Of a stretch of 43,135 nucleotides of DNA, positions 1 to 43,135 are shown in pieces (position 1 is the stretch's first letter; every line of letters begins with the position of its first letter). The DNA lies in IMG/VR virus record IMGVR_UViG_3300010224_000023; one strand, given 5' to 3'. Both the position numbers and the translations under genes were made by a program. The notes beneath the pieces were generated by a model, which saw nothing but the letters and a program-made list of their open reading frames with translations, ran no database searches and was not told where the DNA came from. This DNA comes from a virus.

Positions 1-55
1 CGACTGCTCCAGCTGCTCCAGCTGCTCCAGCTGCTCCCGCTGCTCCCGCTGCTCC
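1..55. repeat. Terminal overlap, identical to 43081..43135
   Basis: cgactgctccagctgctccagctgctccagctgctcccgctgctcccgctgctcc occurs at both window ends. Confidence 0.95.
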
Positions 56-184
56 GGCTGCTCCGACTGCTCCCGCTGCTCCGACTGCTCCAGCTGCTAC
101 CGCTGCTCCAGCTGCTCCCGCTGCTCCCGCTGCTCCGGCTGCTCCGACTGCTCCGACTGCTCCAGCTGCTCCCGCTGCTACCGC
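1..184 (+). repeat. Coding 9-bp tandem repeat (TGC-TCC-NNN)n, continuing from 43022..43135
   Basis: A TGC codon recurs every 9 nt from 5 to 176 in frame 2. A higher-order block (agc tgc tcc cgc tgc tcc cgc tgc tcc ggc tgc tcc gac) occurs twice, at 29..67 and 110..148. Confidence 0.95.
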
Positions 185-532
185 AAGGAAGGTTCAGAGC
201 CAGGAGAACAGCGTGAGCCGTTAGTGATTCCTTTCGTTGAAGAACTCCATAAGAAGCTCTACGCAGCCGTGACAGCGAAGCCAGATGCTCTGGATATGTC
301 CACATGGCATACCTGCGAGACGACGCACTGCCGCGCTGGATGGGTGGTAAATCTTGCTGGCGAAGAGGGACGCAAGTTAGAGGCGTTTCACAATACCGAA
401 CTCGCGGCCATGCTGATTTACGAAAAGTCCGGTTACGAAATTAATCCATGCCGCTTCTATGACTCGGACGAGGATGCGCTGGAAGACATGCGGAAGCTCG
501 CAGAGGACAAGGAGGCAAAGAGCCATGCCTAA
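2..532 (+). CDS. 3' part of the junction-spanning Cys-x-x repeat protein (about 239 aa in total with 42893..43135); C-terminal domain with a WHTCETTHCRAGW motif
   Basis: Frame 2 is open from the window edge. There is no stop between the repeat and the track ORF 224..532 (codon 221..223 is TTA). The stop is TAA at 530..532. The track start at 224 (GTG) is an artefact of linearisation. Confidence 0.8.
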   Translation, partial: DCSSCSSCSSCSRCSRCSGCSDCSRCSDCSSCYRCSSCSRCSRCSGCSDCSDCSSCSRCYRKEGSEPGEQREPLVIPFVEELHKKLYAAVTAKPDALDMSTWHTCETTHCRAGWVVNLAGEEGRKLEAFHNTELAAMLIYEKSGYEINPCRFYDSDEDALEDMRKLAEDKEAKSHA

Positions 533-2091: not shown

Positions 2092-3276
2092 TTGAATCCC
2101 TTGAACCGGCTATCTATACAGCAGGGGAGCGTGACCATCAAGCCGCGCGCCAACGGCGCGGACGCATGGGTATACCGCTTCCGAGACGGCAACAAGCACC
2201 GCTCAATCGTACTTGGACGAGCGGACCAGATGAAAGAAGAAGCAGCTTGGCGCAAAGCGCGTCAGTTGCGGGCAAAGAGTTTCCAGCAGGGCGAGACGAT
2301 GACATCTCTGATAGACACCTACGAGCGAGAAGGCCTGCCAGCCCGTCAAAGCACGGCAGGTCCTTACCGCTCAATCCTCAAGCGTATCCGTGAGGAGTTC
2401 GGCGCGCAGCCGGTAGATGATGTGATGCTCAACGTCATGGGCGTGGAGCGTTGGCTAAACGGCCTGCAAACCATTCCTACCGCAACGCAGACTGCCCGTC
2501 CACTGTCCAGCCGTTCGCGCGGCCACATCAAGGCAATTTTTCACCGCCTTGGAGAGTTCGCGATGAAGATGAACATGCTGGACATGCAGCGAAACCCGAT
2601 GGCTCTCGTGGAACTCAAGGGCTATAACCAGCGGGTGCGCCACATTCCGGTTCTGACGGTGGAGCAGTATCACGCCATTGTCGCGGACCCGAAACTGGCA
2701 CAGCATGTACGGGTCATGGTGCAGGTAGCCATGATGCTCGGACTGCGCGCGAGCGAGTTCCTGGCGCTCCGGTGGGAAGACATCGACCTGCTCAACGGGA
2801 CGGTCTTTGTCCAGCGTTCGGTTGTCGGCAAGCATCAGGATGACACGAAAACAGCCACATCAAAGGAGGTTCTTCCTCTGCATCCGCACTTGGCGTCCGT
2901 ACTGATGGCGTGGCGTCAGCACTCGCCGGTCATCGAGGGTTGGCTGTTCGGCTCTCCGATCACCAATCGGCCGTATCACCGCGACGCACTCCAGAAAGAC
3001 CATCTCATCCCCGCTGGCAAGCGAGTGAATATTCCAAGTTTGGGATGGCACGCGTTCCGGCACACCTACCGTGCGATGCTCCGCAAACTGGAACTCCCTA
3101 TCGAGGTCCAGCAGAAGCTCATGCGCCACGCGGACATAACCACCACATCGAAGTATGGCCAGTCCGGCTCCATGCTCGAAGAACTCCGTCCAGCGAATGC
3201 GTTGCTGGCGGAACGGCTGCAAAATGGAAAGAGCACCGGACGGCCATCCGATGCTCCTGAGGAAAAAGTGAACTAG
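2092..3276 (+). CDS. int: Tyrosine recombinase / phage integrase
   Basis: The C-terminal catalytic signature is present: GLRASEFLALRWEDID (Arg box), HAFRHTYRAML (H-x-x-R), LMRHADITTTSKYGQ (H...Y). The start is uncertain: TTG 2092 or in-frame TTG 2101, which sits 9 nt after AGGAG. Confidence 0.9.
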   Translation: MNPLNRLSIQQGSVTIKPRANGADAWVYRFRDGNKHRSIVLGRADQMKEEAAWRKARQLRAKSFQQGETMTSLIDTYEREGLPARQSTAGPYRSILKRIREEFGAQPVDDVMLNVMGVERWLNGLQTIPTATQTARPLSSRSRGHIKAIFHRLGEFAMKMNMLDMQRNPMALVELKGYNQRVRHIPVLTVEQYHAIVADPKLAQHVRVMVQVAMMLGLRASEFLALRWEDIDLLNGTVFVQRSVVGKHQDDTKTATSKEVLPLHPHLASVLMAWRQHSPVIEGWLFGSPITNRPYHRDALQKDHLIPAGKRVNIPSLGWHAFRHTYRAMLRKLELPIEVQQKLMRHADITTTSKYGQSGSMLEELRPANALLAERLQNGKSTGRPSDAPEEKVN

Positions 3277-3279
3277 ACC

Positions 3280-3306
3280 GTGTTCCCTCGTGTTCCCTCG
3301 TGTTCC
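3280..3306. repeat. Tandem 10-bp repeat gtgttccctc x2.7
   Basis: gtgttccctc gtgttccctc gtgttcc lies directly between the int stop and the tRNA-derived core. It may be an arm-type recombinase or accessory-factor binding site. Confidence 0.6.
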
Positions 3307-3307
3307 T

Positions 3308-3355
<48 letters not shown>

Positions 3356-10413: not shown

Positions 10414-10701
10414 ATGATGGTGCGCATGTTCGAAAGACTGAAACAGCAGCCACTTATAGGCTTGGCGCTGGCAATAGCCGGAGGCTACGTGCTGGCGCAT
10501 GTGTTGATAGAAGTGTGCGATTATCTCTGGATCACTTACCTATGGGACTTTTCGGCTAGAAATGCGGATTCACTGGCCGCGTGGTGTGCAATCTTCGCGC
10601 TGGCTCTGTCTGCCTACTTTGGGTGGAAGAAAATGTGGACGATTCGGCGAAGCCATGACATCTCTAGTGAGACGCCCCAGCCACCGCACCCCACACGTTA
10701 G
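10414..10701 (+). CDS. Small 2-TM membrane protein (95 aa) on the opposite strand inside the structural operon
   Basis: It fills an otherwise unexplained 314-nt gap (10350..10663). It has two clear hydrophobic helices (LIGLALAIAGGYVLAHVLIEV and LAAWCAIFALALSAYFGW). GGTGAGG lies upstream of ATGATG. Confidence 0.45.
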   Translation: MMVRMFERLKQQPLIGLALAIAGGYVLAHVLIEVCDYLWITYLWDFSARNADSLAAWCAIFALALSAYFGWKKMWTIRRSHDISSETPQPPHPTR

Positions 10702-13700
10702 GGTGCTCAATCTTTCCTTGTTGTGATTTCCGTGTGTACCGCAGCGTCTTGAATATCTGATCTGTTCCGGGCACTCCGTAGGCTTCCATCGCCGCCTGCA
10801 GCGTATCCAGCCCGATTCCTACACGGTCTTTGATCTCCGCGTCTGATGTTGCGTGCACTACCGCCTTGGCGCCGCGCTCGATCATGCTCACGACGGGGGA
10901 GAAACGAACATCGCCCTTGTTCTCCAGGGCCTCTACCCCGATGTTCATAATGGCCATCGTTTCAGCAGGGAACAGCAGGGCGCGCTTGGCCGCCCACGTA
11001 CCTTTGTTCTCGTCGTCCTCGGGGCCTCGTCCGGTAAGCAGTGGTCCCATGATGGCCGGGATGATGGCTGCCATAATCATTCCGTAGGTGAGTTGGCCTA
11101 CTTTGCGGCTTTTCCCAAACTCGCTGGAAACATCGGCGATCTGGTTCCACTTGAGATTGTGGAAGCCGCCCATTGTTGTAAGCAACTTCGTAACGTCGTT
11201 GTTCCGCATAATGGGCGCGAGATCCTTTGGAGCATTCGAGCCAAGCCCCATACGTACGGCACCGTCTGCCTTGTGCATCGCCTGGTACTTCGCCTCAGTC
11301 TCCGAAAGGTGAACATTCTCGGCCAGGGCATTGCGATAGACAGCTAGCCACATCGGGAATGAAAGCATGTGGTCCATGAATTGAATCGGTGCCCAGCCTG
11401 CTTTAGCCCATACGTCCGCGACGGTCTTATTTCTCGTGCCGTCCTGAAGAACCTTGCGCATATCGCGGTCAAGATTCTCGCCGCGGGTCGCCATCTCATT
11501 AGGTGAAAGGTTCCGTATCTGCTCGGACATCTCAAACGGATGCGCCACGAAATCAATCATTGCCTGCGCGTAGGATGCCGGAGACGTGTGCAGGAAGATG
11601 CTGGAGGCGTGCGTCAACTGGAGCAGCATCGTAGAAAACTTGAATCCGAGCGCTGCCTTCACGACATTGGTGCGCAGGGTATTCATGGCGCGCGAAACGT
11701 CGCCCAACCCCTGTACCGTGCTGCCGTTGCGGTCGTTGATGATCGTCCGCAGCCATGGCATCATCTGCTTTTCATTGCCTACGCCAAGCGTCTCGCGAAG
11801 CGTCTGACGGATCGCCGGATCCAGCAATAGCTTGTTGGCCGTCAGCATGAACTCCCGATGAGTAATGTCTTTGATGACCTTCGCGGTGTGTTGCGTAAGA
11901 ACCTGTTCGTAATCGAGTTGGAGCGGGCCACCGAATCCGGTGCGCTCCTTCATGTTCCCGCGCGAGGTTGCCGCACGGCCATAGCCCGATTCCATCATGT
12001 TCTGCGCGGTCTGCCCTGCGTCCTGCTGCGCGCCACGTTTAGAGAAGCGCGGGTCCATCACCACGGGATAGTATCCGCCGGCAATATCCATAGTTGAGCC
12101 GTCCGCCAGTTCCACAGAGAACGGTTCAGGCTTTACCATCACCGGAGGCAACCCGGTCAGACGCTTTTCGAGTTCCGCCTGTGCTGCTCCGAGCGGCTTG
12201 AGTGAATCCCACCCGTCCTGCACGAACTGCCATTCCTCGCGCGTGAGCATGCCCTTGACCTTCTCAATGGCCGCCGGGTCCCAGCCGTGTGCGACGAACG
12301 TCTTCTGCAGGCGGTCGAGGTTGCCCTCATTCCCCATGTTGAACGCCATCGCCAGCAAGGTTCTACGGGTTACAGGCTCGGTAATGCCGTCGATGGTGAC
12401 CTTCTCGAGTAGCTTAAGTCGCTGCTCTTTTGGCATCTTCTCGAGCGCATCACCAACTCGCTTCGTTACCTCCGCCTGGAGTGCTGCCTCCTTACCCTGA
12501 GCATCCGCCGCAAGGTTCCACAAGTAGTCATGCCACGGCCCGCTTGTGCCACCATCCAGACGTTTCATAAGAAACTCTGTCCTGGCCAATAGCGCAGTGC
12601 CACGATTTACGAGATCGCCAGCCTTTTGCTCCGTTGTCCGGTTTTCATCGAGCACCGGACGCGGCTTGGACTTGATCGACTCGCGCGCCTGCGCAGCCAT
12701 ACGCTCAACGGCGGCATTGAACTCGATCTTGCGACCATTCACCTCCATGCCGAGCTCCTGCGATGCAAGATGCCGGATATTAGTCAGAGCATCGTGAAGC
12801 ATGCGTATTTCAGCCACACTCGCGTGCCGGTAGTGAACAGCGCGCGTCTCATCGAACATCTGCGGGTCGATGGCCGATTCCTTGCCCTCGTCATAGAGTG
12901 CAGACGCCCATTCGGCCAGCGTGCGCGCCGGCGGCTCAGCGGGTGCTGCAGCGAGCCCATAGCGGGAGAGCAGACGGTTGAACTGGTCGCGATAGTCCGC
13001 TCCTGCCAAACCAAGTTTCTGCTGCACGGTCTTCGTCTGCATGCGCTTGACGTAGGATTCAAACTTGCCGATGTACTCCTTGGCCTTCGTCGCCTCACGG
13101 AACAGGAAGTGATTCAGCAGTTCCTTATGCTTGGCCTGCGCAGCCTCGTCTATCTTTCCCTTGCGCAGTGCGTCGAAGGCCTCGCGCGAATACTTGCGGC
13201 TCGCATCCAGATAGCGGGTCGGCTGTAAGTCTGCAATGGCCTTCGACTCGACCATCTGCTGCGCGGCTTCGCGGTACGACTCGATGGGTGCAACCTGTAT
13301 CGAGCGCAGTGCGGATTTCTGGTCGGCGGCCTTACCTTTCAGACTCTCAATCTTCTTTTGGAGCGCCTTAAGTTCACGGTGCAGGTTTTCAGCGCGGTTT
13401 TGGTTTTCAACCGCCATGCGCGCCTGATCGTTCAGGCTGCCGTCATAACGGATGTCGCCATACTTATTCGTCATGTGCTCGCGGACGGACGTATCGATGG
13501 CATCAGTACGCCGCGGTACTGCCTCCAACGCGCTCAACATATCTTCCGCAGAGTTGAACCCGAGTACTTCCGCCGCTGCTTCTGTATCCACTCCGCCTTC
13601 GTTGCGGTACAGGCCAGGATGCAGCCGCTGGAGATCCTTCACGCGCTCCTCGCCGAACTGCTTTACCAGTTCTTCCCGCCTTAGGGTCAACGCAGTGCCA

Positions 13701-16700
13701 TCATCCAATGCGCCACGCCGGAGCGAGCGAATGGCCTGATACTCCGGCATACGATCAATCTGCTGTGTCAGAGCCTCGCGCGCGTTCTTTTCTTCTTCGC
13801 GCCATGCATCCGTGCGCTCGCGCACCGCAGCATCATTCAGCTTAGCCAGAATTTCAGCTTTGGCGTGCTCGACTTCCAGACCGCGCGCTTCCGCGTACTT
13901 CTGGAACTCCTCCTCCGTCCATCCAGCTTCTTCAGGACTGGAGAACAACTGCGGACCACCCTCCTGCACGGCACGATCCACGCCACCTTCCGCCGCGTAC
14001 AGGCGGTCGAAGACGCCGCGGATGTTGTCATTCAACTCCACGCCGAGGTCAGACGCTTTCTTGTAGACAGTCCCTAGCCAGATAGCAAACCGCTGAAAGA
14101 CTCCCTTCAACCCCTCGCTGGGAGCTTTACCTTCGCGTAGATATTGCTCATTCGCACGCGCCCAAGTTTCGTGCTGCTCGCGCGTAAGCGGTTGGCCCTC
14201 CTTTGCGCCGAGGTAATCGAGAATCTTCGCGTAGTCACCCTTGATGGTTTCGCTCGCGCCTTCTCGGGTAGCGAGTTCACTGATGATGTGCAGGTACGCG
14301 TGGGCGGGCTCATGTACAAACGTGCTGAGGTCGCCGATCTTCGTCCTCCCTATTTCATAGGTGCCGTCAGGCAGGACGCGGAACCAACCGCGCGGCGTGC
14401 CAGGTGCAGAGGCGGACTGGAGCATGAAATCATTGTTCTTGCCCGCCGTAGGGTTGCGGACTACAATTGGATCTCTGCCATCGCCTCGGGCGTTGGGATG
14501 AAGGTTGACCGCTATGCGGTCGGCATCCATCGTGGCAGGAAACCTCCGCATGGTGACTGCAGCAAGTTCTTTCGCCCCGCCCCTCTTCTTGCCAGCGCGA
14601 ACTTCTTCCACATAAAGAACCGATCCATCTGGCATTTTCTTGGCATAGCCAATCTGATCGCGGCCCAGACGATTCTTTGTGTTCAATATCAAATAATCTG
14701 GATCGCTGATAATCTCAGGGATCGATTCGAAGTCACGCTCGGTGACAGCTATCTGGCCGCGCTGAGCTTCGGTCTTCGCGTTCCCGTGACTATTGAGCGT
14801 ATGCCGAATGGCCGATCCATCGATGATGTGCGTGTAGCCATCGAGATCATATCCATGCTCCCTAGCCGCCTCCACCAGCCATGCGCCTACAGGTGCGATC
14901 ACCGCCTTATGTGGAACGTGTCCAGGCTGCTTCGCGGCCTCTATAACAGTCCGTATCTTCTCAATGGCCTCCTGATGTAAGGCCTGCGCGCCGGCTCCTG
15001 GCGATTCTTCCGCAACCACCTTGGGGTTGTAGTAGTTCACCAACTCGCTCGGCTTCAGGCCCGCACTCTTCGCAAGATTGCTATACGCGTTAGCATCCTT
15101 AACGGCCAGAGTCTCAGCCACTTCCGGAGTCTCGCCCGCATCCACGTAACGCTGGCGCAGGTCTTCCTTGACACTCTGCCATTCGGGGGATGATGCGGTT
15201 TCGGCATCGGCTTCCGCCGTCTCAGCCTGTAGCTTCTCGGGCCCACCCTCGGCAACCCACTTCTGTAGTTCCTCGCGGCCTTCCTGATGCTGGCGCATCG
15301 TGAGCCCGGTAGCGGGGTCTACTACATCAGCGAGTAATCCCTTTTGGTGCTCGGGGTCTAGCTTGGAGAGAAAGTCCGCTTTCGGAACTTCGACATCGCC
15401 ACCGGACAGCACCGCTTCCGCGTAATTGGAAGCGCCAATGTCTCCGGCTACCTCCGCAGGATCCATTTCCTTTCCTTTGAAATACTCGTTGAACTGTTCG
15501 GCGGGGATGCGCAGGCTTTCGTCGCCAGCGAAGATCGTCTGCAGCGCCTCGTGAAACTTCTCAGGAGAACGCGTGCGCAGTTGCGACTCATCCGCCGCAG
15601 CGACGGCTTGCGTCAGACTTCCAAAGAACGCGTCCGTACCGAGGTGCATACCGCCTTGCATGGCCGCACCCTGAACCGCAGCCGATGGGACACCCTCCAA
15701 AGTAGGCTTGCCGGTCACCACGTTCTGCGCTATCTGGCCTGACACTCCCGTTGCACTGCCGAGTCCAATCGAAGTCAGCAGCGGATTATTCCGCAGGGCA
15801 GGGATTAGGTCCGTCGCCCCAAACATGGCATTCGGCAGAACTGTGATTGCCGCCACGCGGTTTGCTGCCAGCCTCGCAGCATCATCGCTGCCACCGGCCC
15901 CCGCCACGGCGGTGTATGTCTTTCCCGCTTGGTCAGCGGTAAACATCCCACCGATAGTAAGGCCGGTTAGCACCTTAGCTGCTTTGTCGCTAAGTCCGAG
16001 CGTTTTAGCGAGAAGGCTTGTCCCTCCGGACGTTACGACAGAGGGCACCATCGGCGCGACATTCTTCATCAACCAGTCGAACTCGTTGCTCTTATGAAAG
16101 AGGGCAGACGGGTCCGTGTTCGTCTCGGCGCTTAGGCCAGTCTCGATGCGCTGCAAAAAGTTCTGTTTCGTTGGTCCGTCACCATGCAGCCCAAAGAATG
16201 AGGCGACGTTACCCACTATGCCCGCCGTGCCGCCCACTACGTCGATAGCTCCACGAGTCAGAGGAAAGTCATACGCGCGCTGCTTGACCTGATCGGGCGT
16301 ACGTCCGGTCACATCGGCGAAGGTCTGCGAGAGTTTGTCCCAAAAAGTAGGCGTGTACGCGCGCATCACTGCGGCGTGCTGCTCGATTCCAGCCAGGCGA
16401 TGAATCTCATCCACACCCGAGACGGCCGCATTGTGCGGATCGGACGCCCATCCCGACGTGATCGGTGCGATCTCCGTAAGGTATCTCGGGTCGATCCGGT
16501 TCTGGTTGGCTGCCTGCTGTACTTGATGCTCATTTCCCTGAGTGACTGACGGTGGGATGCCGGTCAGTTGTTGAAGCTGAAGCAGCTTGGCATACCGAAC
16601 AGGGTCTTGCTGGGATGCGTACGAAACCGCACCCTGCAATGCTTGGGCCTGAGTGGGCACCGGAGACGGCTCAGGTCCGGATATTGGAACAGCCTTATCG

Positions 16701-16729
16701 AAATCGAGGGTTACTGGAGTCGTCGCCAC
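10664..16729 (-). CDS. Giant internal virion / ejection protein (2021 aa) with embedded PBECR-like and HExxH zincin-like modules
   Basis: Its position after the two internal proteins and the tail tube genes parallels T7 gp16. There is a C-terminal hydrophobic segment, GQLTYGMIMAAIIPAIMGPLL. aa ~605-735 (nt 14525..14917) read THIIDGSAIRHTLNSHGN..RGQIAVTERDFESIPEIISDPDYLI. HEPAH is at nt 14300..14314. Confidence 0.75.
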   Translation of the reverse strand: MATTPVTLDFDKAVPISGPEPSPVPTQAQALQGAVSYASQQDPVRYAKLLQLQQLTGIPPSVTQGNEHQVQQAANQNRIDPRYLTEIAPITSGWASDPHNAAVSGVDEIHRLAGIEQHAAVMRAYTPTFWDKLSQTFADVTGRTPDQVKQRAYDFPLTRGAIDVVGGTAGIVGNVASFFGLHGDGPTKQNFLQRIETGLSAETNTDPSALFHKSNEFDWLMKNVAPMVPSVVTSGGTSLLAKTLGLSDKAAKVLTGLTIGGMFTADQAGKTYTAVAGAGGSDDAARLAANRVAAITVLPNAMFGATDLIPALRNNPLLTSIGLGSATGVSGQIAQNVVTGKPTLEGVPSAAVQGAAMQGGMHLGTDAFFGSLTQAVAAADESQLRTRSPEKFHEALQTIFAGDESLRIPAEQFNEYFKGKEMDPAEVAGDIGASNYAEAVLSGGDVEVPKADFLSKLDPEHQKGLLADVVDPATGLTMRQHQEGREELQKWVAEGGPEKLQAETAEADAETASSPEWQSVKEDLRQRYVDAGETPEVAETLAVKDANAYSNLAKSAGLKPSELVNYYNPKVVAEESPGAGAQALHQEAIEKIRTVIEAAKQPGHVPHKAVIAPVGAWLVEAAREHGYDLDGYTHIIDGSAIRHTLNSHGNAKTEAQRGQIAVTERDFESIPEIISDPDYLILNTKNRLGRDQIGYAKKMPDGSVLYVEEVRAGKKRGGAKELAAVTMRRFPATMDADRIAVNLHPNARGDGRDPIVVRNPTAGKNNDFMLQSASAPGTPRGWFRVLPDGTYEIGRTKIGDLSTFVHEPAHAYLHIISELATREGASETIKGDYAKILDYLGAKEGQPLTREQHETWARANEQYLREGKAPSEGLKGVFQRFAIWLGTVYKKASDLGVELNDNIRGVFDRLYAAEGGVDRAVQEGGPQLFSSPEEAGWTEEEFQKYAEARGLEVEHAKAEILAKLNDAAVRERTDAWREEEKNAREALTQQIDRMPEYQAIRSLRRGALDDGTALTLRREELVKQFGEERVKDLQRLHPGLYRNEGGVDTEAAAEVLGFNSAEDMLSALEAVPRRTDAIDTSVREHMTNKYGDIRYDGSLNDQARMAVENQNRAENLHRELKALQKKIESLKGKAADQKSALRSIQVAPIESYREAAQQMVESKAIADLQPTRYLDASRKYSREAFDALRKGKIDEAAQAKHKELLNHFLFREATKAKEYIGKFESYVKRMQTKTVQQKLGLAGADYRDQFNRLLSRYGLAAAPAEPPARTLAEWASALYDEGKESAIDPQMFDETRAVHYRHASVAEIRMLHDALTNIRHLASQELGMEVNGRKIEFNAAVERMAAQARESIKSKPRPVLDENRTTEQKAGDLVNRGTALLARTEFLMKRLDGGTSGPWHDYLWNLAADAQGKEAALQAEVTKRVGDALEKMPKEQRLKLLEKVTIDGITEPVTRRTLLAMAFNMGNEGNLDRLQKTFVAHGWDPAAIEKVKGMLTREEWQFVQDGWDSLKPLGAAQAELEKRLTGLPPVMVKPEPFSVELADGSTMDIAGGYYPVVMDPRFSKRGAQQDAGQTAQNMMESGYGRAATSRGNMKERTGFGGPLQLDYEQVLTQHTAKVIKDITHREFMLTANKLLLDPAIRQTLRETLGVGNEKQMMPWLRTIINDRNGSTVQGLGDVSRAMNTLRTNVVKAALGFKFSTMLLQLTHASSIFLHTSPASYAQAMIDFVAHPFEMSEQIRNLSPNEMATRGENLDRDMRKVLQDGTRNKTVADVWAKAGWAPIQFMDHMLSFPMWLAVYRNALAENVHLSETEAKYQAMHKADGAVRMGLGSNAPKDLAPIMRNNDVTKLLTTMGGFHNLKWNQIADVSSEFGKSRKVGQLTYGMIMAAIIPAIMGPLLTGRGPEDDENKGTWAAKRALLFPAETMAIMNIGVEALENKGDVRFSPVVSMIERGAKAVVHATSDAEIKDRVGIGLDTLQAAMEAYGVPGTDQIFKTLRYTRKSQQGKIEHPNVWGAVAGASH

Positions 16730-25309: not shown

Positions 25310-26973
25310 TGCTGCACCGTGTACCCGCTGACCTGGTTCAGTTGGTCGTAGGCATTACCGCCGCCCTGTACCGGCGTCTGTCCAAGGTTCTTCGCGGTCT
25401 TCGATTGCTGCTCCATCACAGCCGCCTGCTGTGCGGCCTGCTGCGCCTTCGCGCGCGCGTCACGAATCATTGCTACCTTGTCGTTGGCAACAATCAATGT
25501 CGGATCAACGCCTAACTGGTCGCTGTACACGTCCGCCCATGAATCCGAATCAAACTTATCGAGCACGTCCGGCTTGTACTGCGCAATCATGCCGAGATTG
25601 CCGACGAATCGGTCAATACCATTGGTGCCGATGGCACGCTGCGCCTGTGCCAACACCGATACGAGTTCGACATTCAGTTCCATCCCCTGCATCTCCTGCG
25701 GAGGCGGAGGAATGGCGTTCATCTCAACCATGTTGTCGAAGGTGAGATTGACCATCGGGTACAGTAGTTCGTTGCTCAGGCGCTCAAGCACCGGCCCAAG
25801 CATCAGCATCTTCTCTTCCTGCCGCGCCGCCACTTCCGTGGCCGTCATCTTCGGATCGACCATGTTCGAGATCATCAAGAACAGGTCAGAGAAGAATGTG
25901 GTGCGGATGCGCTGCCGAATATCCTGAATGTCCGCAAGCAGGTGGTTGAGATCGAGATTGACTTCGAACAGGTTCTTGACGCCCTGCTGTGCGTTCGTCG
26001 CGTCGTAATAGGTGATGCCCCCCGGCAATCTGTCCACATCGCGGTTCTTCAGTGATGCAGGCGCCGCAATCGGAGGATTGGTGAGATAGTCGATGCCCTG
26101 GGCCTTGCGAAGCTGCTCATGCTGCAGTTGCTTCACATCTCCAAGGGCTTCCATGCCCGGTGAGTTTCCGTAGATGTCTCCACCAGACACAGCCCAGCGG
26201 GGGGCGACAGCAGGGAATCTCTTGAATCCACTCTCGCGCAGGAATTGTCCATCGTTTACGCCAACTTCGAAGTAGTAGCTTCCCCACGCCATGTTCTTGG
26301 CGTCTTTCTTGCTCGGGTCGCGGTCAGAGCGCGGTTCGATGCTGTGCTGCACGCTGATCCACGCATCCAGCGTGCCGTTGGTGTAAAGGCTCTTCACGGT
26401 CTGCGAACAGTTCGCAATCCCGAACTCCTTCACGATCTGCGATACCTGCATCTGAAACTGCCGATATAGCGTGACCACTTCACCTTTGGCGTCGGTGGCG
26501 ATGCAATACTCGCCTGCCGTAAGCGGGTAATGATGGAGCACGGTGTTGAAGTCCGGCACGATCACAGATGCCGCCGTACCAAACGCGCCCAACTCCTCAT
26601 ACATCTGGTGCAGCGCGCGGTAGGTGTTCGATACCTGGAACGCCTTGTGCATCGACTGTGACACCTGATCGAGCCATATCTTTACCGGCTGATAGGCGTT
26701 CAGAGACGGGTCAGGAGTCTGCAACCGGAACCATGGACGTGCAGGCGAGGTTGCACCCGCCATCAAGCCAGCGCCGAGTGTTCGAAGCGCCTGTGTGCCT
26801 GTGTTGTCGTAGATTTGGTTGAACTTCTTTGTTCCCTTGTCGCGGTCCTCTAAGAAGTAGCGCCCGTTGTATGGAAGCAGGTAGCGAGAGATTTCGCGCC
26901 ACTGTCCAATCCACGATTGCCGCTCAAGTGTAAGAGTTCCCCATCGCCGGATGAGTTCGTTGCGCTTATCCAT
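25306..26973 (-). CDS. Portal protein (555 aa)
   Basis: Size and position after TerL fit. The N-terminus LIRRWGTLTLERQSWIGQWREISRYLLP..GR is a podovirus head-to-tail connector pattern. Confidence 0.8.
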   Translation of the reverse strand: MDKRNELIRRWGTLTLERQSWIGQWREISRYLLPYNGRYFLEDRDKGTKKFNQIYDNTGTQALRTLGAGLMAGATSPARPWFRLQTPDPSLNAYQPVKIWLDQVSQSMHKAFQVSNTYRALHQMYEELGAFGTAASVIVPDFNTVLHHYPLTAGEYCIATDAKGEVVTLYRQFQMQVSQIVKEFGIANCSQTVKSLYTNGTLDAWISVQHSIEPRSDRDPSKKDAKNMAWGSYYFEVGVNDGQFLRESGFKRFPAVAPRWAVSGGDIYGNSPGMEALGDVKQLQHEQLRKAQGIDYLTNPPIAAPASLKNRDVDRLPGGITYYDATNAQQGVKNLFEVNLDLNHLLADIQDIRQRIRTTFFSDLFLMISNMVDPKMTATEVAARQEEKMLMLGPVLERLSNELLYPMVNLTFDNMVEMNAIPPPPQEMQGMELNVELVSVLAQAQRAIGTNGIDRFVGNLGMIAQYKPDVLDKFDSDSWADVYSDQLGVDPTLIVANDKVAMIRDARAKAQQAAQQAAVMEQQSKTAKNLGQTPVQGGGNAYDQLNQVSGYTVQQ

Positions 26974-27329
26974 CAGGAACCCAGAAGTGTGGTCTTGCCG
27001 AGGTTGAGGCCAGAGGTATCGATTCCGCCGGGGCCGGTGAGCATTGTGCTTCCCGCTCCGCCGCCCGCTACCGCTGCGCGCTTGAGGATGGTGGAGATGT
27101 CAGGAGCCGCCTGATTCGCTTGGCCTTGTGCGACCTCGCCTTTACGTTCCGTGGAGAGTGCAGCAGCGGTAGCGGTCTGCTGTGCGGTGGTCTGTTTCTT
27201 CAATGCCTGCTGCTGGGCGGCGTGCTGGTGCTGTCCGTTGTAGATGCCGTACCCGAGGGATCCCGCTCCGACGGCGGCACCGGCAATAGCCGCGATTGTT
27301 GCTGCTGATGCGCTTCCCGCCATCGTCAC
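26973..27329 (-). CDS. Gly/Ala/Gln-rich small protein (118 aa), hypothetical virion or assembly protein
   Basis: It is coupled to the portal start (1-nt overlap). The N-terminus is hydrophobic and Gly/Ala-rich. Confidence 0.5.
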   Translation of the reverse strand: MTMAGSASAATIAAIAGAAVGAGSLGYGIYNGQHQHAAQQQALKKQTTAQQTATAAALSTERKGEVAQGQANQAAPDISTILKRAAVAGGGAGSTMLTGPGGIDTSGLNLGKTTLLGS

Positions 27330-39862: not shown

Positions 39863-40221
39863 ACGGCCTCGATCCGCACTTCAAATCTCACCGCATCTCC
39901 ACTCCTCAGAGCGCACCCCTGTTTGAGCAGGACTACAGCAAGGGACGCGAGACGGAAACCTCGAAGGCTGCGTACGCGCGCGTCAAGGGCCACAAAACAG
40001 TTCAGTACGAGCAGATCAAGTCATACCTGCGTAGGTTTCCCCAGGGACGCACGAACAACGAGATCGTGGACGGCACTGGAATGAAGATCCAGTCTGTTTC
40101 GGGACGGTGCTCTGAACTCGTGAGCGACGGGATTCTCGTTCTCACTGGTGAGCGTCGGGACGGTGGAGCAGTCAAGGCGCTGAAGAATCCGCACGCAAAC
40201 GTTTTGGCGGGGGTGCAGTAA
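39859..40221 (+). CDS. Winged-helix DNA-binding protein (120 aa)
   Basis: QIKSYLRRFPQGRTNNEIVDGTGMKIQSVSGRCSELVSDGILVLTGERRDG is a MarR-like wHTH pattern common in phage early genes. Confidence 0.55.
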   Translation: MNGLDPHFKSHRISTPQSAPLFEQDYSKGRETETSKAAYARVKGHKTVQYEQIKSYLRRFPQGRTNNEIVDGTGMKIQSVSGRCSELVSDGILVLTGERRDGGAVKALKNPHANVLAGVQ

Positions 40222-40700
40222 TGGCTGAAGTCACCTATTCAAAGTGCCGCTCCTGCGATGACGGCTACATTTCCTCCCTAGCGCGCGAGAACGGATACAC
40301 GATCTGCTGGGACTGCATCGAGGCGGCGAAGGGCAACCCTTGCTTCGCGTGTGATGACCCTGCCGACTCGCGCTCGGAAGATGGCAAGCGTTGCGCGGTA
40401 TGCGAGCACCGCTTCTGGCTTAAGCATGGCCCGGATGGATTCGTAGGCGGATTTGAACGCTGGCAGGAGCATGTTGAAGCCTGGCGTGTGCGTGCTGGCA
40501 TCGACATCGAAATCCCGAAAGCCAAGACGCTGCACGAGGTCTGTGAAGCGATGCCGCGCCTGTCTCCAGAAATTACCCGCGGAGCCTACCGCCATCGTCC
40601 CTATCAGGGCGTAGGAGCAGCCGCACTCTCTATGTCCATCCTTGCCATGCTCGGCTTCGGCCTCAACGCCATGCTCGATGTTTTGGCGCGGCACCAGTAA
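40221..40700 (+). CDS. Cys-rich protein with C-terminal TM helix (159 aa)
   Basis: It has CRSC..., CWDC..., CFAC..., CAVC (four CxxC pairs). The C-terminus is AAALSMSILAMLGFGLNAML. Confidence 0.55.
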   Translation: MAEVTYSKCRSCDDGYISSLARENGYTICWDCIEAAKGNPCFACDDPADSRSEDGKRCAVCEHRFWLKHGPDGFVGGFERWQEHVEAWRVRAGIDIEIPKAKTLHEVCEAMPRLSPEITRGAYRHRPYQGVGAAALSMSILAMLGFGLNAMLDVLARHQ

Positions 40701-41932: not shown

Positions 41933-42376
41933 GTGCTGACACCCCGCACCCAACTGCATCGCCACAAGCGCCTGGTATGCAAGACGAGTTTGAAGGCACG
42001 AACTCCGATCAAGAAGGTGCGGGATAAGCCGAGGCGGAAGGGCAAGAAGAAGCCACCACCGCCAGTAAAGATATTTCCCGGCGGGCGTGAGGTATGCAGT
42101 AACACGGCAGCAGGCAGGGCAGAGTACAGGATTCGCAGAGATGAGATGTGGGATCGCGACCTAGGCATCTGCTGTGTGTGCGGGGAGCATGTCGATAAAG
42201 ACGAGGCCACGTTTGAGCACTGGCATGGTCGCGGCATGGGCGGTGGCAAACGGGATGATCGCACGACGAAGGACGGCAAGCCCTACAACGGCGTAGCGCA
42301 TGAGTGGTGCAACAGTTTGAAAGCCTCGACGCCGATTGAGAAGTGGCGCGAGATGAACGGAGAGAGTAATGGCTAA
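41933..42376 (+). CDS. HNH endonuclease-like protein (NinG/HNH type, 147 aa)
   Basis: The N-terminus is basic. It has CCVCGEHV....ATFEHWHGRG...AHEWCNSLKAS, the spacing expected for a Cys4/His HNH zinc finger. Confidence 0.55.
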   Translation: MLTPRTQLHRHKRLVCKTSLKARTPIKKVRDKPRRKGKKKPPPPVKIFPGGREVCSNTAAGRAEYRIRRDEMWDRDLGICCVCGEHVDKDEATFEHWHGRGMGGGKRDDRTTKDGKPYNGVAHEWCNSLKASTPIEKWREMNGESNG

Positions 42377-42896
42377 CCCAGAGAACGTGACAAAAAAGCT
42401 ATGCGATGAGTGCGAGGGGAACGGGAAAATACTCGCGATGTGCGGCGAGTGCAACGGAACAGGCTTTGAAATCAACCCTGCCGCCTCCCGTCTTGCCGAT
42501 CCAAAGGTAGAGGCAGTGGCCGAGCCAGCAGTGCCCACTCCCGCAGCAGAGGCAGTAGCCGCCCCCGTAGATGAAGAGCGCACGATATTTGAGGAATGGT
42601 GGGCGACTACAATCCACGGAACTGTCTGGAACATTGCAGATGAACGCTCGCGCATGGCTGCAAAGGATTCCTCTAGGGCCGCGTGGTATGCCTCACTGAA
42701 AACACGCATCACCCCATCAGCAGATGCGCTGGTAGAGGCGCTGGAGAAGTCGAAGCAGTTGGCCAGTATTGGTTATCGCATTGGTGAAGCTGACATGCGT
42801 GGACACGACAAAGTAGGCGAGCGGTGGAGCAAGAAGCAAGACGAACTGATTGCTGAGATAGACGCCGCCATCGCAGCCTACAAGGAGGCATTATGA
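42369..42896 (+). CDS. Protein with DnaJ-type Zn-finger repeats (175 aa)
   Basis: The N-terminus has CDECEGNG...CGECNGTG (2 x CxxCxGxG). It overlaps the HNH stop. Confidence 0.55.
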   Translation: MANPENVTKKLCDECEGNGKILAMCGECNGTGFEINPAASRLADPKVEAVAEPAVPTPAAEAVAAPVDEERTIFEEWWATTIHGTVWNIADERSRMAAKDSSRAAWYASLKTRITPSADALVEALEKSKQLASIGYRIGEADMRGHDKVGERWSKKQDELIAEIDAAIAAYKEAL

Positions 42897-43135
42897 AGAC
42901 GAAAACATGGTACGAAGAGTTCGGCACTGAATGGGTGCGCGACGAAAATAACAACCGCTGCTCGGTCAGCTATTTCGGAACGAAGGAAAAAGCAGAGGCG
43001 GCGCTCGAAAGTCTTGAGGACTGCCGTGGGTGTGTGAATTGCTACGACTGCTCCGACTGCTCCAACTGCTCCCGCTGCTCCGACTGCTCCAGCTGCTCCA
43101 GCTGCTCCAGCTGCTCCCGCTGCTCCCGCTGCTCC
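42893..43135 (+). CDS. 5' part of the junction-spanning Cys-x-x repeat protein (continues at 56..532)
   Basis: ATGA coupling at 42893..42896. It encodes MKTKTWYEEFGTEWVRDENNNRCSVSYFGTKEKAEAALESLEDCRGCVNCYDCSDCSNCSRCSDCSSCSS..., open to the window end on a codon boundary. Confidence 0.8.
   Translation, partial: MKTKTWYEEFGTEWVRDENNNRCSVSYFGTKEKAEAALESLEDCRGCVNCYDCSDCSNCSRCSDCSSCSSCSSCSRCSRCS
43022..43135 (+). repeat. Coding 9-bp tandem repeat, 3' window edge (includes the terminal overlap 43081..43135)
   Basis: A TGY codon recurs every 9 nt from 43022. Confidence 0.95.

What the first reader, a model, noticed from the sequence alone, without database searches (positions are those of the whole stretch)
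1..532. Junction-spanning protein with 27 consecutive Cys-x-x units (C-S-[DSRGN] / C-Y-R), encoded by a 243-bp 9-mer tandem repeat (also 42893..43135)
Seen in sequence. The ORF starting at 42893 runs off the window end on a codon boundary and continues in frame at position 56 to the stop at 530..532, about 239 aa in total. It has three parts: a 43-aa N-terminal segment; 81 aa in which every third residue is Cys (CRG CVN CYD CSD CSN CSR CSD CSS CSS CSS CSR CSR CSG CSD CSR CSD CSS CYR CSS CSR CSR CSG CSD CSD CSS CSR CYR); and a 115-aa C-terminal domain with the motif MSTWHTCETTHCRAGW.

The DNA repeat has a higher-order duplication (29..67 = 110..148). The neighbouring early genes are also CxxC-rich (42369..42896 has 2 x CxxCxGxG; 40221..40700 has four CxxC).

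Inference. A strictly periodic Cys array of this density suggests a metal-thiolate (metallothionein-like), multi-zinc or Fe-S binding rod, or a redox or disulfide-based scaffold. I do not know of a characterised phage protein with this architecture. The repeat is also a likely hotspot for copy-number variation.
Basis: partly seen in the sequence, partly recalled or inferred. Interest (0 to 1): 0.65.

Follow-up and report, generated by a model that had tools for sequence, protein, structure and literature searches.

The report
Phage protein with Cys-Ser-x repeat rod
A temperate phage encodes a real protein whose middle is 27 back-to-back Cys-Ser-x units; it belongs to a large, unstudied phage family in which this cysteine array sits where relatives carry pentapeptide or other repeat rods, which suggests a new and probably metal-held kind of repeat scaffold.

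Summary
The window ends share an exact 55-bp overlap, so it is a circular contig of 43,080 bp. The joined ORF (42893..43135 + 56..532) encodes 239 aa with 27 in-register C-x-x units.

It is a real gene, not junk. There are 771 or more homologues in the 5.8-billion-protein set. At least 494 IMG/VR contigs and 33 bacterial genomes from several phyla carry the same layout: an N-cap, a (Cys-Ser-[D/G/R/N/Y])n array of 4-59 units, and an all-alpha C-domain with the motif WHTCxTTHCRAGW.

Each array uses one Ser codon, but different arrays use TCG, TCC, TCT, TCA, AGT or AGC. The DNA is therefore homogenised by slippage, while Cys and Ser are selected at the protein level.

The same C-domain (1,496 clusters at 50% identity) is elsewhere preceded by pentapeptide, LRR-like or other tandem repeats. 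CSx arrays also occur in other small proteins.

No Pfam, NCBIfam, PDB or literature match was found. AlphaFold2 cannot model the array beyond about 8 units.

Best reading: a length-variable rod or scaffold module, probably stabilised by metal-thiolate bonds, in an early accessory protein. Metal binding is untested. The copy number of 27 is provisional, because the contig closes inside the array.

The parts
42880..42886 (+). Shine-Dalgarno AAGGAGG, 6 nt upstream of the start codon. The start ATG at 42893 overlaps the stop of the upstream gene (ATGA).
   Evidence: Sequence read; ORF list.
42893..43021 (+). N-terminal cap domain, aa 1-43. Family consensus W..D.nGNrCSVeYFGs.e.A..AL.SL..C; predicted as beta strands followed by two helices.
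   Evidence: AF2 pLDDT is 88-97 over residues 1-50. It is conserved in 117 aligned homologues. phrog_15341 matches aa 17-123 at E = 3e-18.
43022..43135 (+). First part of the Cys-x-x array: aa 44-81, which is units 1-12 plus two residues of unit 13.
1..55 (.). Assembly overlap, an exact duplicate of 43081..43135. This is not extra sequence. It marks closure of a circular contig inside the array.
   Evidence: the terminal overlap is 55 bp and the 55-mer is unique in the circle.
56..184 (+). Second part of the Cys-x-x array, aa 82-124. The whole array is 243 bp and 27 units, with a 53-bp internal repeat at an offset of 81 bp.
185..229 (+). Linker between the array and the C-domain, aa 125-139. 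It is Glu/Pro-rich and variable in the family.
   Evidence: Alignments A1 and A2. AF2 confidence rises again from about aa 130.
230..532 (+). Conserved all-alpha C-terminal 'THCRAGW' domain (aa 140-239) plus the stop codon at 530..532.
   Evidence: phrog_31265 matches at E = 3e-25. AF2 pLDDT exceeds 90, with six helices. 1,496 clusters at 50% identity match at E <= 1e-3. Identity to the Ralstonia phage 'pentapeptide repeat proteins' is 44-48%.
296..343 (+). His/Cys motif MSTWHTCETTHCRAGW. H166, H172, C173, G176 and W177 are invariant; C168, T171 and R174 are conserved in at least 90% of sequences; H146 upstream is also near-invariant.
   Evidence: (invariant columns in 117 sequences).

Best explanation
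This is a genuine, translated early or accessory gene of a temperate phage. It belongs to a large uncharacterised family built as N-cap + tandem-repeat array + conserved alpha-helical C-domain with a His/Cys motif (WHTCxTTHCRAGW).

In this subfamily the array is a Cys-Ser-x tripeptide repeat. Shown here:
- The array is kept uniform at the DNA level within each phage by in-frame 9-bp slippage or unequal recombination.
- Its length varies between close relatives.
- Cys at position 1, Ser at position 2 and a polar or Gly residue at position 3 are maintained by selection on the protein.
- The same C-domain is preceded in relatives by pentapeptide, LRR-like and other tandem repeats.

Inferred:
- The CSx array is a folded, elongated repeat module, a rod, spacer or binding surface of tunable length. 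It plays the same architectural role as those other repeat arrays.
- It has no hydrophobic residues and sits in a cytoplasmic protein. Its only possible core is the line of thiolates, which are most likely cross-linked by bound metal ions (Zn2+, or Fe or Cu).
- The C-domain is the constant functional part, either an effector or an anchor. It may itself bind a metal through H146/H166/C168/H172/C173.
- The protein acts alone, since it has no conserved gene partners, on a host target during early infection or lysogeny.
For: Real gene and family:
- The ORF, Shine-Dalgarno site and translational coupling are in place.
- 771 homologues at E <= 1e-3 exist, and the top 120 share the layout, with 116 of them carrying the motif.
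- 494 IMG/VR contigs and 96 GTDB genome loci, 33 of the best 80 with CSx arrays, span Acidobacteriota, Proteobacteria, Bacteroidota, Planctomycetota and Patescibacteria.

Protein-level selection:
- In 78 arrays, position 1 is Cys in 2,230 codons.
- Each array uses essentially one Ser codon, but across arrays the codons are TCG, TCC, TCT, TCA, AGT and AGC.
- Position 3 is D, G, R, N, Y, H or S and almost never hydrophobic.

Length variation:
- L007 versus L008 have 100% identical flanks but 37 versus 42 units. L067 versus L080 have 26 versus 59 units.

Interchangeability of the array:
- Ralstonia phage RSK1 and Sarlave proteins have the same C-domain after pentapeptide repeats.
- Among the best 150 of 1,496 C-domain clusters there are 24 with CSx arrays, at least 41 with pentapeptide repeats, and also LRR-like and other repeats.

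CSx is a module in its own right:
- It occurs with at least 2 different N-caps (P0010 and phage FL-1 versus the window) and in at least 2 other small families that lack the C-domain.

Folded start of the array:
- AF2 gives pLDDT of 75-93 for the first 7-8 units, packed after the N-cap, with a regular bridge at every second-position residue.

Cytoplasmic and early:
- There is no signal peptide or transmembrane segment in the sequence.
- The gene lies in the + strand early block, with Mu Gam-like, HNH and Q-like zinc-finger genes upstream and the integrase 1.6 kb downstream.
- There are no conserved neighbours in 72 loci.
Against: - No metal binding was or could be tested.
- AF2 gives pLDDT below 50 for most of the array in two independent runs, so a defined fold is not demonstrated. 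The array could be partly disordered without a cofactor.
- Unit counts show no bias towards multiples of 2, 3 or 4. This argues against discrete four-Cys sites with fixed stoichiometry.
- The N-caps of the CSx-type and pentapeptide-type proteins are not detectably homologous (hhalign probability 0.2%). 'Swap of the array only' is therefore too simple. The unit that is exchanged is cap plus array.
- The C-domain has no fold or sequence match to anything of known function, so the cellular target and activity are unknown.
Confidence: 0.45

Rival explanations
1. The array is an intrinsically disordered, slippage-generated low-complexity linker. It is tolerated rather than functional. Only the N-cap and C-domain matter, and no metal is bound.
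For: AF2 pLDDT is below 50 over most of the array. Length varies widely, from 4 to 59 units, and differs between near-identical phages. There is no super-period and no parity bias in unit counts. Some family members have only 4-7 units.
Against: Cys and Ser are kept across arrays that use different synonymous codons, including the TCN and AGY Ser families, which cannot interconvert by a single synonymous change. Hydrophobic residues, Ala, Pro and Thr are nearly excluded from position 3. The same array type recurs in unrelated protein contexts. A neutral linker would drift in composition.
Confidence: 0.2
2. The array is a chain of iron-sulfur clusters, or a redox or electron-relay rod. Each run of CxxCxxC wraps a cluster, as in ferredoxin-type motifs.
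For: By established knowledge, the 4Fe-4S ferredoxin motif CxxCxxCxxxCP uses three Cys at the same 3-residue spacing for one cluster. The protein is cytoplasmic. The conserved His/Cys motif in the C-domain could serve as a terminal site.
Against: There is no Fer4 or any Fe-S Pfam or NCBIfam hit. The array lacks the Pro and hydrophobic residues that shield clusters in ferredoxins. It is interchangeable with pentapeptide and LRR-like arrays that carry no redox cofactors. There is no bias of unit number towards multiples of 4.
Confidence: 0.08
3. The array is a disulfide-cored beta-helix of the insect antifreeze (TmAFP) type, that is, a covalently cross-linked rod.
For: The only PDB sequence hit of the family profile is TmAFP 1EZG (E = 0.028). 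TmAFP also has a core of Cys and Ser without hydrophobic residues (established knowledge).
Against: That hit is dominated by composition bias (bias 41 of 15.5 bits). The TmAFP period is 12 residues with Cys every 6, not every 3. Foldseek finds no match. The protein has no signal peptide and is made in the reducing cytoplasm from an early operon, not from the virion module.
Confidence: 0.05
4. The selected object is the DNA repeat, for example replication iterons, a recombination hotspot or a protein-binding array. The Cys-x-x reading is incidental.
For: 27 tandem 9-mers are nearly identical at the DNA level. The TGC-TCC core is kept even in the lower-GC phage FL-1. Contigs often break in the array, as this window does.
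Against: Across the family the DNA unit differs (TGC-TCG, TGC-TCC, TGT-TCA, TGC-AGT and others) while the peptide unit is constant. The array always lies in frame between two conserved protein domains. All slippage is in multiples of 9 bp. A 9-bp unit without spacers is unlike known iterons (established knowledge: these are typically 17-22 bp).
Confidence: 0.04
5. The array is a substrate for post-translational chemistry, with Cys/Ser heterocyclisation or thioether formation as in microcin B17 or other RiPP-like products.
For: Adjacent Cys-Ser pairs are the residues that microcin B17 synthase cyclises. The pentapeptide protein McbG is the microcin B17 immunity factor (established knowledge). 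This makes the CSx-for-pentapeptide exchange suggestive.
Against: No cyclodehydratase, dehydrogenase or radical-SAM gene was found among the scanned ORFs of the window (20 ORFs scanned). No gene of any kind is a conserved neighbour in 72 loci. The array is embedded between folded domains rather than following a leader peptide.
Confidence: 0.03

Closest known systems
Ralstonia phage 'putative pentapeptide repeat proteins' (RSK1 ORF34 BAO04699.1; RsoP1IDN; Bakolyvirus, e.g. Sarlave QMV33657.1)
   Same: The C-terminal THCRAGW domain is homologous, at 44-48% identity and E down to 3e-18. The overall layout is the same: a short cap, a tandem-repeat array of variable length, then the C-domain. These are also early-region phage genes.
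   Different: Their array is a classical pentapeptide repeat (PF00805, E = 4e-56), not Cys-x-x. Their N-cap is not detectably related. They are also functionally uncharacterised.
PHROG families phrog_31265 and phrog_15341 (both 'unknown function')
   Same: The C-domain matches phrog_31265 (E = 3e-25) and the N-cap plus array matches phrog_15341 (E = 3e-18). Phage proteins of this kind are therefore already clustered.
   Different: The PHROG entries carry no annotation, no function and no description of the repeat.
Flavobacterium phage FL-1 (KY421186.2), region 26.5-27.3 kb
   Same: It encodes a 36-unit CSx array followed by the same C-domain. It is the only cultured-phage CSx example found by tblastn.
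   Different: GenBank annotates the +1 frame, an A-P-[IV] repeat protein. The true frame is broken by a frameshift at the THCRAGW motif, so this is a sequencing error or a pseudogene. Its N-cap differs, being of the P0010/PF27784 type.
Metallothioneins
   Same: The array is about 33% Cys with Ser as the main companion residue. It has CxxC spacing, lacks a hydrophobic core, and is cytoplasmic.
   Different: There is no sequence relationship. The array is a strictly periodic 81-residue stretch between two folded domains of a 239-aa protein, not a free peptide under 10 kDa. Aromatic residues are present (Y/F at 7-10% of positions 2 and 3 in the family). Metal binding is untested.
Tenebrio molitor antifreeze protein (PDB 1EZG) and other Cys-laddered beta-helices
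   Same: It is a repeat protein whose core is made of Cys and Ser rather than hydrophobic residues. It is also the best PDB profile hit, though insignificant.
   Different: It has a 12-residue period with Cys every 6 residues. It is secreted and disulfide-bonded. There is no structural match by Foldseek.

Membership tests
THCRAGW-domain phage proteins (phrog_31265; not in Pfam) | C-terminal alpha-helical domain of about 100 aa with the motif ALDM..WH.C.T.HCRAGW...LAG..G..LE | tested here: met
   phrog_31265 matches at E = 3e-25. The motif is invariant or near-invariant in 117 homologues. AF2 predicts an all-alpha domain with pLDDT above 90.
THCRAGW-domain phage proteins (phrog_31265; not in Pfam) | The domain lies C-terminal to a tandem-repeat array in a (pro)phage gene | tested here: met
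   The window gene lies in a temperate-phage early block.
CSx-array proteins (phrog_15341-like) | An uninterrupted run of at least 4 in-register Cys-x-x units, dominated by Cys-Ser-[DGRNY] | tested here: met
   There are 27 units, 22 of them with Ser at position 2. The family statistics match.
Pentapeptide repeat family (Pfam PF00805) | Tandem A(D/N)LXX five-residue repeats detected by the Pfam model | tested here: not met
   The window protein has no PF00805 hit. The same model hits the Ralstonia relatives at E = 4e-56.
Metallothionein | Cys content of about 30% with C-x-C or C-x-x-C motifs | tested here: met
   27 of the 81 array residues are Cys, all at CxxC spacing.
Metallothionein | A small stand-alone polypeptide (under about 10 kDa) with sequence similarity to a recognised metallothionein family | tested here: not met
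   The protein is 239 aa with two flanking folded domains. There is no Pfam or NCBIfam metallothionein hit.
Metallothionein | Metal-thiolate clusters formed with d10 metals | not testable with these tools
   This needs ICP-MS, UV charge-transfer spectroscopy or EXAFS on purified protein.
Ferredoxin-type 4Fe-4S proteins | The CxxCxxCxxxCP motif, or a hit to a Fer4 model | tested here: not met
   There is no Fer4 family at E <= 1. The Cys-Pro element is absent from the sequence.
TmAFP-type disulfide beta-helix | A 12-residue coil with Cys every 6 residues, in a secreted, structurally similar protein | tested here: not met
   The period is 3 residues. There is no signal peptide. The PDB profile hit has E = 0.028 and is driven by bias. 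Foldseek gives no hit.
DnaJ-type zinc finger (CxxCxGxG) | CxxCxGxG units | tested here: not met
   These are absent from this protein. They are present twice in the upstream neighbour at 42369..42896.
Known anti-phage defence proteins (PADLOC) | A hit to any PADLOC model | tested here: not met
   No families match at E <= 1.

The most novel reading that the evidence does not exclude
Cys-Ser-x tripeptide arrays are a previously undescribed class of protein repeat. They would fold into a rod whose core is a continuous metal-thiolate chain, with one bridging or paired site per few units, a kind of proteinaceous metal wire. Phages would use it as a length-tunable scaffold in the same architectural position as pentapeptide beta-helices, in front of a conserved His/Cys effector domain that acts on a host target.
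Probability: 0.3. Interest if true: 0.85.

Novelty: new variant of a known kind. Interest (0 to 1): 0.62.

Why it matters
If the array is a metal-held rod, it would add a new structural class to the short list of solenoid-type repeats. Its core would be thiolate and metal rather than hydrophobic residues, and its length would be set by simple 9-bp slippage. That would interest protein designers and bioinorganic chemists.

Biologically, it also flags a very common and completely unstudied phage accessory family. The C-domain defines 1,496 clusters at 50% identity, and the family occurs in hundreds of viral contigs and in prophages across many phyla. The variable repeat module placed in front of a constant domain is typical of proteins caught up in host-phage conflict.

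Practically, the array breaks short-read assemblies and causes mis-annotation. Phage FL-1 is annotated in the wrong frame, and one homologue is named a 'solute carrier organic anion transporter'.

Tried and rejected
- Pfam, NCBIfam and PADLOC scans of the whole protein and its parts gave nothing significant. The only hit was DUF7336 at E = 0.05-0.19, below cutoff.
- PDB sequence searches with the C-domain and with the family profile gave only composition-biased or insignificant hits.
- Two AlphaFold2 runs were made: the window protein with 117 sequences, and a 16-unit homologue with 37 sequences chosen for similar array length. Neither modelled the array beyond about 8 units.
- Foldseek against the PDB (twice) and BFVD gave no informative match. 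The only hit was a 69-aa uncharacterised Campylobacter phage CP20 protein that matches the C-domain.
- A profile-profile comparison of the CSx-type and pentapeptide-type N-caps showed no relationship.
- A neighbour-gene clustering over 72 loci, looking for a conserved partner such as a maturase, chaperone or target, found none. Synteny with the closest homologue's contig is essentially absent.
- A search for a structural super-period in position 3, and for a parity bias in unit number, found none.
- Literature searches for CSDCS-type strings, HCRAGW, phage pentapeptide repeat proteins and Cys-rich tandem repeats in phages found nothing relevant.
- I considered and rejected the A-P-x repeat of phage FL-1 and of P0072 as a separate repeat type. 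It is the +1 frame of the same DNA.
Full report
OBSERVATION

The two ends of the window are the same 55 bases (1..55 = 43081..43135). The record is therefore a circular or circularly closed contig of 43,080 unique bp. Reading from ATG 42893 through the window end and on from position 56 gives one open frame of 239 codons, ending at TAA 530..532. The motif MSTWHTCETTHCRAGW is at residues 162-177 (window 296..343).

Tandem Repeats Finder reports the 9-bp period on both sides of the junction, plus a 27-bp super-period. At the DNA level, 26 of the 27 first codons are TGC and 22 of the 27 second codons are TCC.

The start codon has an AAGGAGG Shine-Dalgarno site 6 nt upstream and overlaps the stop of the upstream gene (ATGA). 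The next gene's ATG at 525 overlaps this gene's stop. The gene therefore sits in a translationally coupled operon.

It is 53 bp exact, at an offset of 81 bp or nine units.

RELIABILITY OF THE JUNCTION

The terminal 55-mer is unique in the circle. Independently, more than a hundred homologues carry the N-terminal part (encoded at the window end) and the C-terminal part (encoded at the window start) in one uninterrupted ORF. One example is P0001, at 69% identity over 95% of the length, in the interior of a 40-kb contig. The ORF is real.

The number of units is less certain. The contig opens and closes inside a 243-bp array that no short read spans. The 53-bp internal repeat is only just shorter than the 55-bp overlap by which the contig closes. 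At least eight of the 80 related IMG/VR loci are likewise cut at a contig end inside the array. I treat 27 as provisional.

THE FAMILY

A search of 5.8 billion proteins returns 771 hits at E <= 1e-3. The top 120 share one architecture:
- an N-terminal cap of about 35-45 aa, with consensus W..D.nGNrCSVeYFGs.e.A..AL.SL..C;
- a (Cys-x-x)n array of 4-38 units, median 21;
- a variable linker;
- a conserved C-terminal domain.

116 of the 120 carry the H..C..HCRAGW motif.

In the arrays, position 1 is Cys in 2,461 of 2,485 units. Position 2 is Ser in about 74% of units, otherwise Y, R, T, L or F. Position 3 is D, G, R, N, Y, H or S and is almost never hydrophobic. Net charge is near zero, and there is no consistent super-period among homologues.

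IMG/VR holds 494 contigs that encode a relative. One-genome-per-species GTDB holds 96 loci. 33 of the best 80 have CSx arrays of 4-56 units. They come from Acidobacteriota (a Terriglobales MAG is the closest, at 60% identity), Alpha-, Beta- and Gammaproteobacteria, Bacteroidota, Planctomycetota, Patescibacteria and others. They include isolates such as Rhizorhapis suberifaciens, Dyadobacter sp. CY261, Kaistia dalseonensis and Phyllobacterium phragmitis, and a prophage region of Granulicella sp. 5B5.

No Pfam or NCBIfam model covers any part of the protein. The precomputed Pfam column is empty for 119 of the 120 homologues. PHROGs has two matching families, both of 'unknown function'.

SELECTION ACTS ON THE PROTEIN

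In 78 viral arrays each array uses essentially a single Ser codon. Different arrays use TCG (1,297 codons), TCC (434), TCT (96), TCA (79), AGT (37) or AGC. Cys is TGC in most arrays but TGT in some.

Uniformity within an array is the signature of slippage or unequal recombination. Constancy of Cys-Ser across arrays built from different codons, including the two Ser codon families that cannot interconvert by a single synonymous change, is the signature of purifying selection on the peptide. Because the DNA unit is 9 bp, slippage always stays in frame. The array is therefore a length dial and not an on/off switch.

Length does differ between near-identical phages. L007 and L008 share a 600-bp flank at 100% identity but have 37 versus 42 units. 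L067 and L080 (94% identical flank) have 26 versus 59 units. Three other identical loci all have 32 units. Assembly error could contribute to these differences.

All three forward frames of the array are open. This explains two artefacts. P0072 alternates between CSx and AP[TAG] segments. The GenBank annotation of Flavobacterium phage FL-1 calls an A-P-[IV] repeat protein, whereas the neighbouring frame reads a complete 36-unit CSx protein that loses frame at the THCRAGW motif.

THE ARRAY IS A MODULE, AND SO IS THE C-DOMAIN

tblastn against cultured phages finds the C-domain, at 44-48% identity, in Ralstonia phages RSK1, RsoP1IDN, RpY1 and the Bakolyvirus group. There the protein is annotated 'putative pentapeptide repeat protein'. 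Its middle is a classical pentapeptide array (PF00805, E = 4e-56) of very different lengths in different phages.

An exhaustive HMMER scan of 1.84 billion cluster representatives with the window's C-domain finds 1,496 clusters at E <= 1e-3. My script sorted the best 150 as follows: 24 with CSx arrays, 41 with pentapeptide repeats, 31 'other' and 49 short or fragmentary. By inspection, the 'other' class holds shorter pentapeptide arrays, a few LRR-like repeats and other tandem repeats. The GTDB loci add 12-residue repeat types.

Conversely, CSx arrays occur behind at least two unrelated N-caps (the window type, and the P0010/FL-1 type). They also occur in at least two other small protein families that lack the C-domain altogether. 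The N-caps of the CSx and pentapeptide types are not detectably homologous (hhalign probability 0.2%). The exchanged unit is therefore cap plus array.

STRUCTURE

AlphaFold2 with 117 sequences gives a confident N-cap (pLDDT 88-97) and a confident six-helix C-domain (above 90). Confidence is moderate to high only for the first seven or so array units, which show a regular bridge at every second-position residue. The rest of the array falls below 50.

A second run on a 16-unit homologue, with an alignment restricted to arrays of similar length, behaves the same way. Foldseek finds nothing in the PDB for either model (best E = 1.7). In BFVD it finds only a 69-aa uncharacterised Campylobacter phage protein that matches the C-domain. 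The family profile's best PDB sequence hit is the Tenebrio antifreeze beta-helix, at E = 0.028 with heavy composition bias. This is a lead, not evidence.

In the C-domain, H166, H172, C173, G176 and W177 are invariant, and H146, C168, T171 and R174 are nearly so. The His-Cys pair sits at the N-terminus of a predicted helix. This could be a small metal site or a reactive centre.

CONTEXT

The window is a temperate phage. It has an integrase at 2092..3276, followed by a tRNA-3'-end-like attP core. The structural genes lie on the minus strand: terminase, portal-type head-tail adaptor protein (phrog_332), major head protein, tail protein and a 2,021-aa protein. The plus-strand early block contains a Mu Gam-like gene, an HNH gene, a gene with a Q-like/DnaJ-like zinc finger, and then this gene.

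Across 72 loci, no gene is a conserved neighbour on either side. The protein has no signal peptide and no hydrophobic segment. It is therefore a stand-alone, cytoplasmic, early or accessory protein.

INTERPRETATION

Shown:
- The gene is real.
- The family is huge.
- The array is slippage-homogenised and variable in length.
- Cys, Ser and a polar third residue are under protein-level selection.
- The array occupies the position that pentapeptide and other solenoid-forming repeats occupy in relatives.

Inferred:
- The array is a folded, elongated module of tunable length.
- With no hydrophobic residue to build a core, and in a reducing compartment, its thiolates are most plausibly tied together by metal ions.
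- The lack of a parity bias in unit number fits a continuous or fraying arrangement better than discrete four-Cys sites.

Unknown: the metal, the fold, and the target of the C-domain. The connection between pentapeptide proteins and DNA gyrase or DNA mimicry is a lead from general knowledge only. The CSx arrays are not acidic (net +3 here), so simple DNA mimicry is unlikely.

RIVALS

The rivals are a functionless disordered linker, an Fe-S chain, a disulfide beta-helix, a DNA-level element and a RiPP-like substrate. Each is weighed in its own section. The linker model is the strongest, and the codon evidence argues against it.

NOVELTY AND VERDICT

Its metal-binding idea is reasonable but untested. 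Its sense of rarity was wrong, because this is a common but unstudied family.

I found no description of Cys-Ser-x tripeptide arrays or of the THCRAGW domain in curated family libraries, in solved structures or in the searchable literature. I rate it a new variant of a known kind, a tandem-repeat scaffold protein or Cys-rich putative metal binder. There is a real chance, about 0.3, that the array is a new structural class.

Noticed in passing
window 1..55 and 43081..43135: There is an exact 55-bp terminal overlap, so the contig is circular or circularly closed (43,080 bp unique). The break point lies inside the 9-mer array. Chance placement there would be about 0.6% (243 of 43,080 bp). The array itself probably caused the assembly break.
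   Followed up: yes
window 2092..3351: A tyrosine integrase (phrog_1, E = 1e-49) is followed by CGTGTTCCCT x 2.8 direct repeats (3279..3306). Next comes a roughly 47-bp stretch (3305..3351) that reads as the reverse complement of a tRNA 3' end (T-arm plus acceptor) and matches Arthrobacter phage intergenic regions at 93-97%. This is likely the attP core for integration into a tRNA gene. ARAGORN finds no complete tRNA.
   Followed up: partly
L002 (Flavobacterium phage FL-1, KY421186.2 about 26,440..27,271): GenBank annotates an (A-P-[IV])n repeat protein (APZ82901.1) and a separate 74-aa protein (APZ82918.1). The adjacent frame encodes a complete CSx-array protein of 36 units that runs into the same C-domain after a frameshift at the THCRAGW motif. 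This is a mis-annotation caused by a sequencing error or a pseudogene.
   Followed up: partly
window 42369..42896: The upstream, translationally coupled gene has two DnaJ-type CxxCxGxG zinc-finger units at its N-terminus and a weak match to Q-like antiterminators (phrog_127, E = 1e-6). It is not a conserved neighbour of the family.
   Followed up: partly
window 40221..40700: This 159-aa ORF has several CxxC pairs and a hydrophobic C-terminal tail (AAALSMSILAMLGFGLNAMLDVLA). It has no PHROG hit and may be a membrane-anchored zinc-finger protein.
   Followed up: no
window 10664..16729 (minus strand): This 2,021-aa ORF matches phrog_9880 (unknown function, E = 1e-260). It sits between tail-protein and lysis-like genes and is probably a giant internal virion or ejection protein.
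   Followed up: no
P0267, P0270, P0272-P0275, P0290, P0304; and P0268, P0271, P0280, P0283: Two further small protein families (about 100-140 aa) carry CSx arrays without the THCRAGW domain. One has an 'EILKMSKEEL..YKW' N-terminus and an 'NLKYAICNVE..EEYEKKMKEL' C-terminus. The other has an 'RWYDENNNSW.TEE.A..YSPTL.NC' cap. One member is named 'solute carrier organic anion transporter' in NCBI, evidently a composition-driven misnomer.
   Followed up: partly
P0072: This homologue's array switches repeatedly between C-S-x and A-P-[TAG] segments and still returns to the correct frame for the C-domain. All three forward frames of the array are open, so indels inside it, whether real or sequencing errors, go undetected by ORF callers.
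   Followed up: partly
L002 (FL-1) array versus window array: The TGC-TCC hexamer core of the unit is the same in the window (58% GC gene) and in phage FL-1. In FL-1 the third codon has shifted to T-ending forms (GAT/CGT/GGT), as expected for a low-GC genome. It is unclear why the Cys-Ser codons have not followed genome composition there.
   Followed up: no
L122 and L123 (Xanthomonas sp. NCPPB 1128, NZ_LFME01000002.1): Two identical copies of a pentapeptide-type THCRAGW gene lie about 37 kb apart on one contig. This suggests two related prophages or a duplicated element.
   Followed up: no
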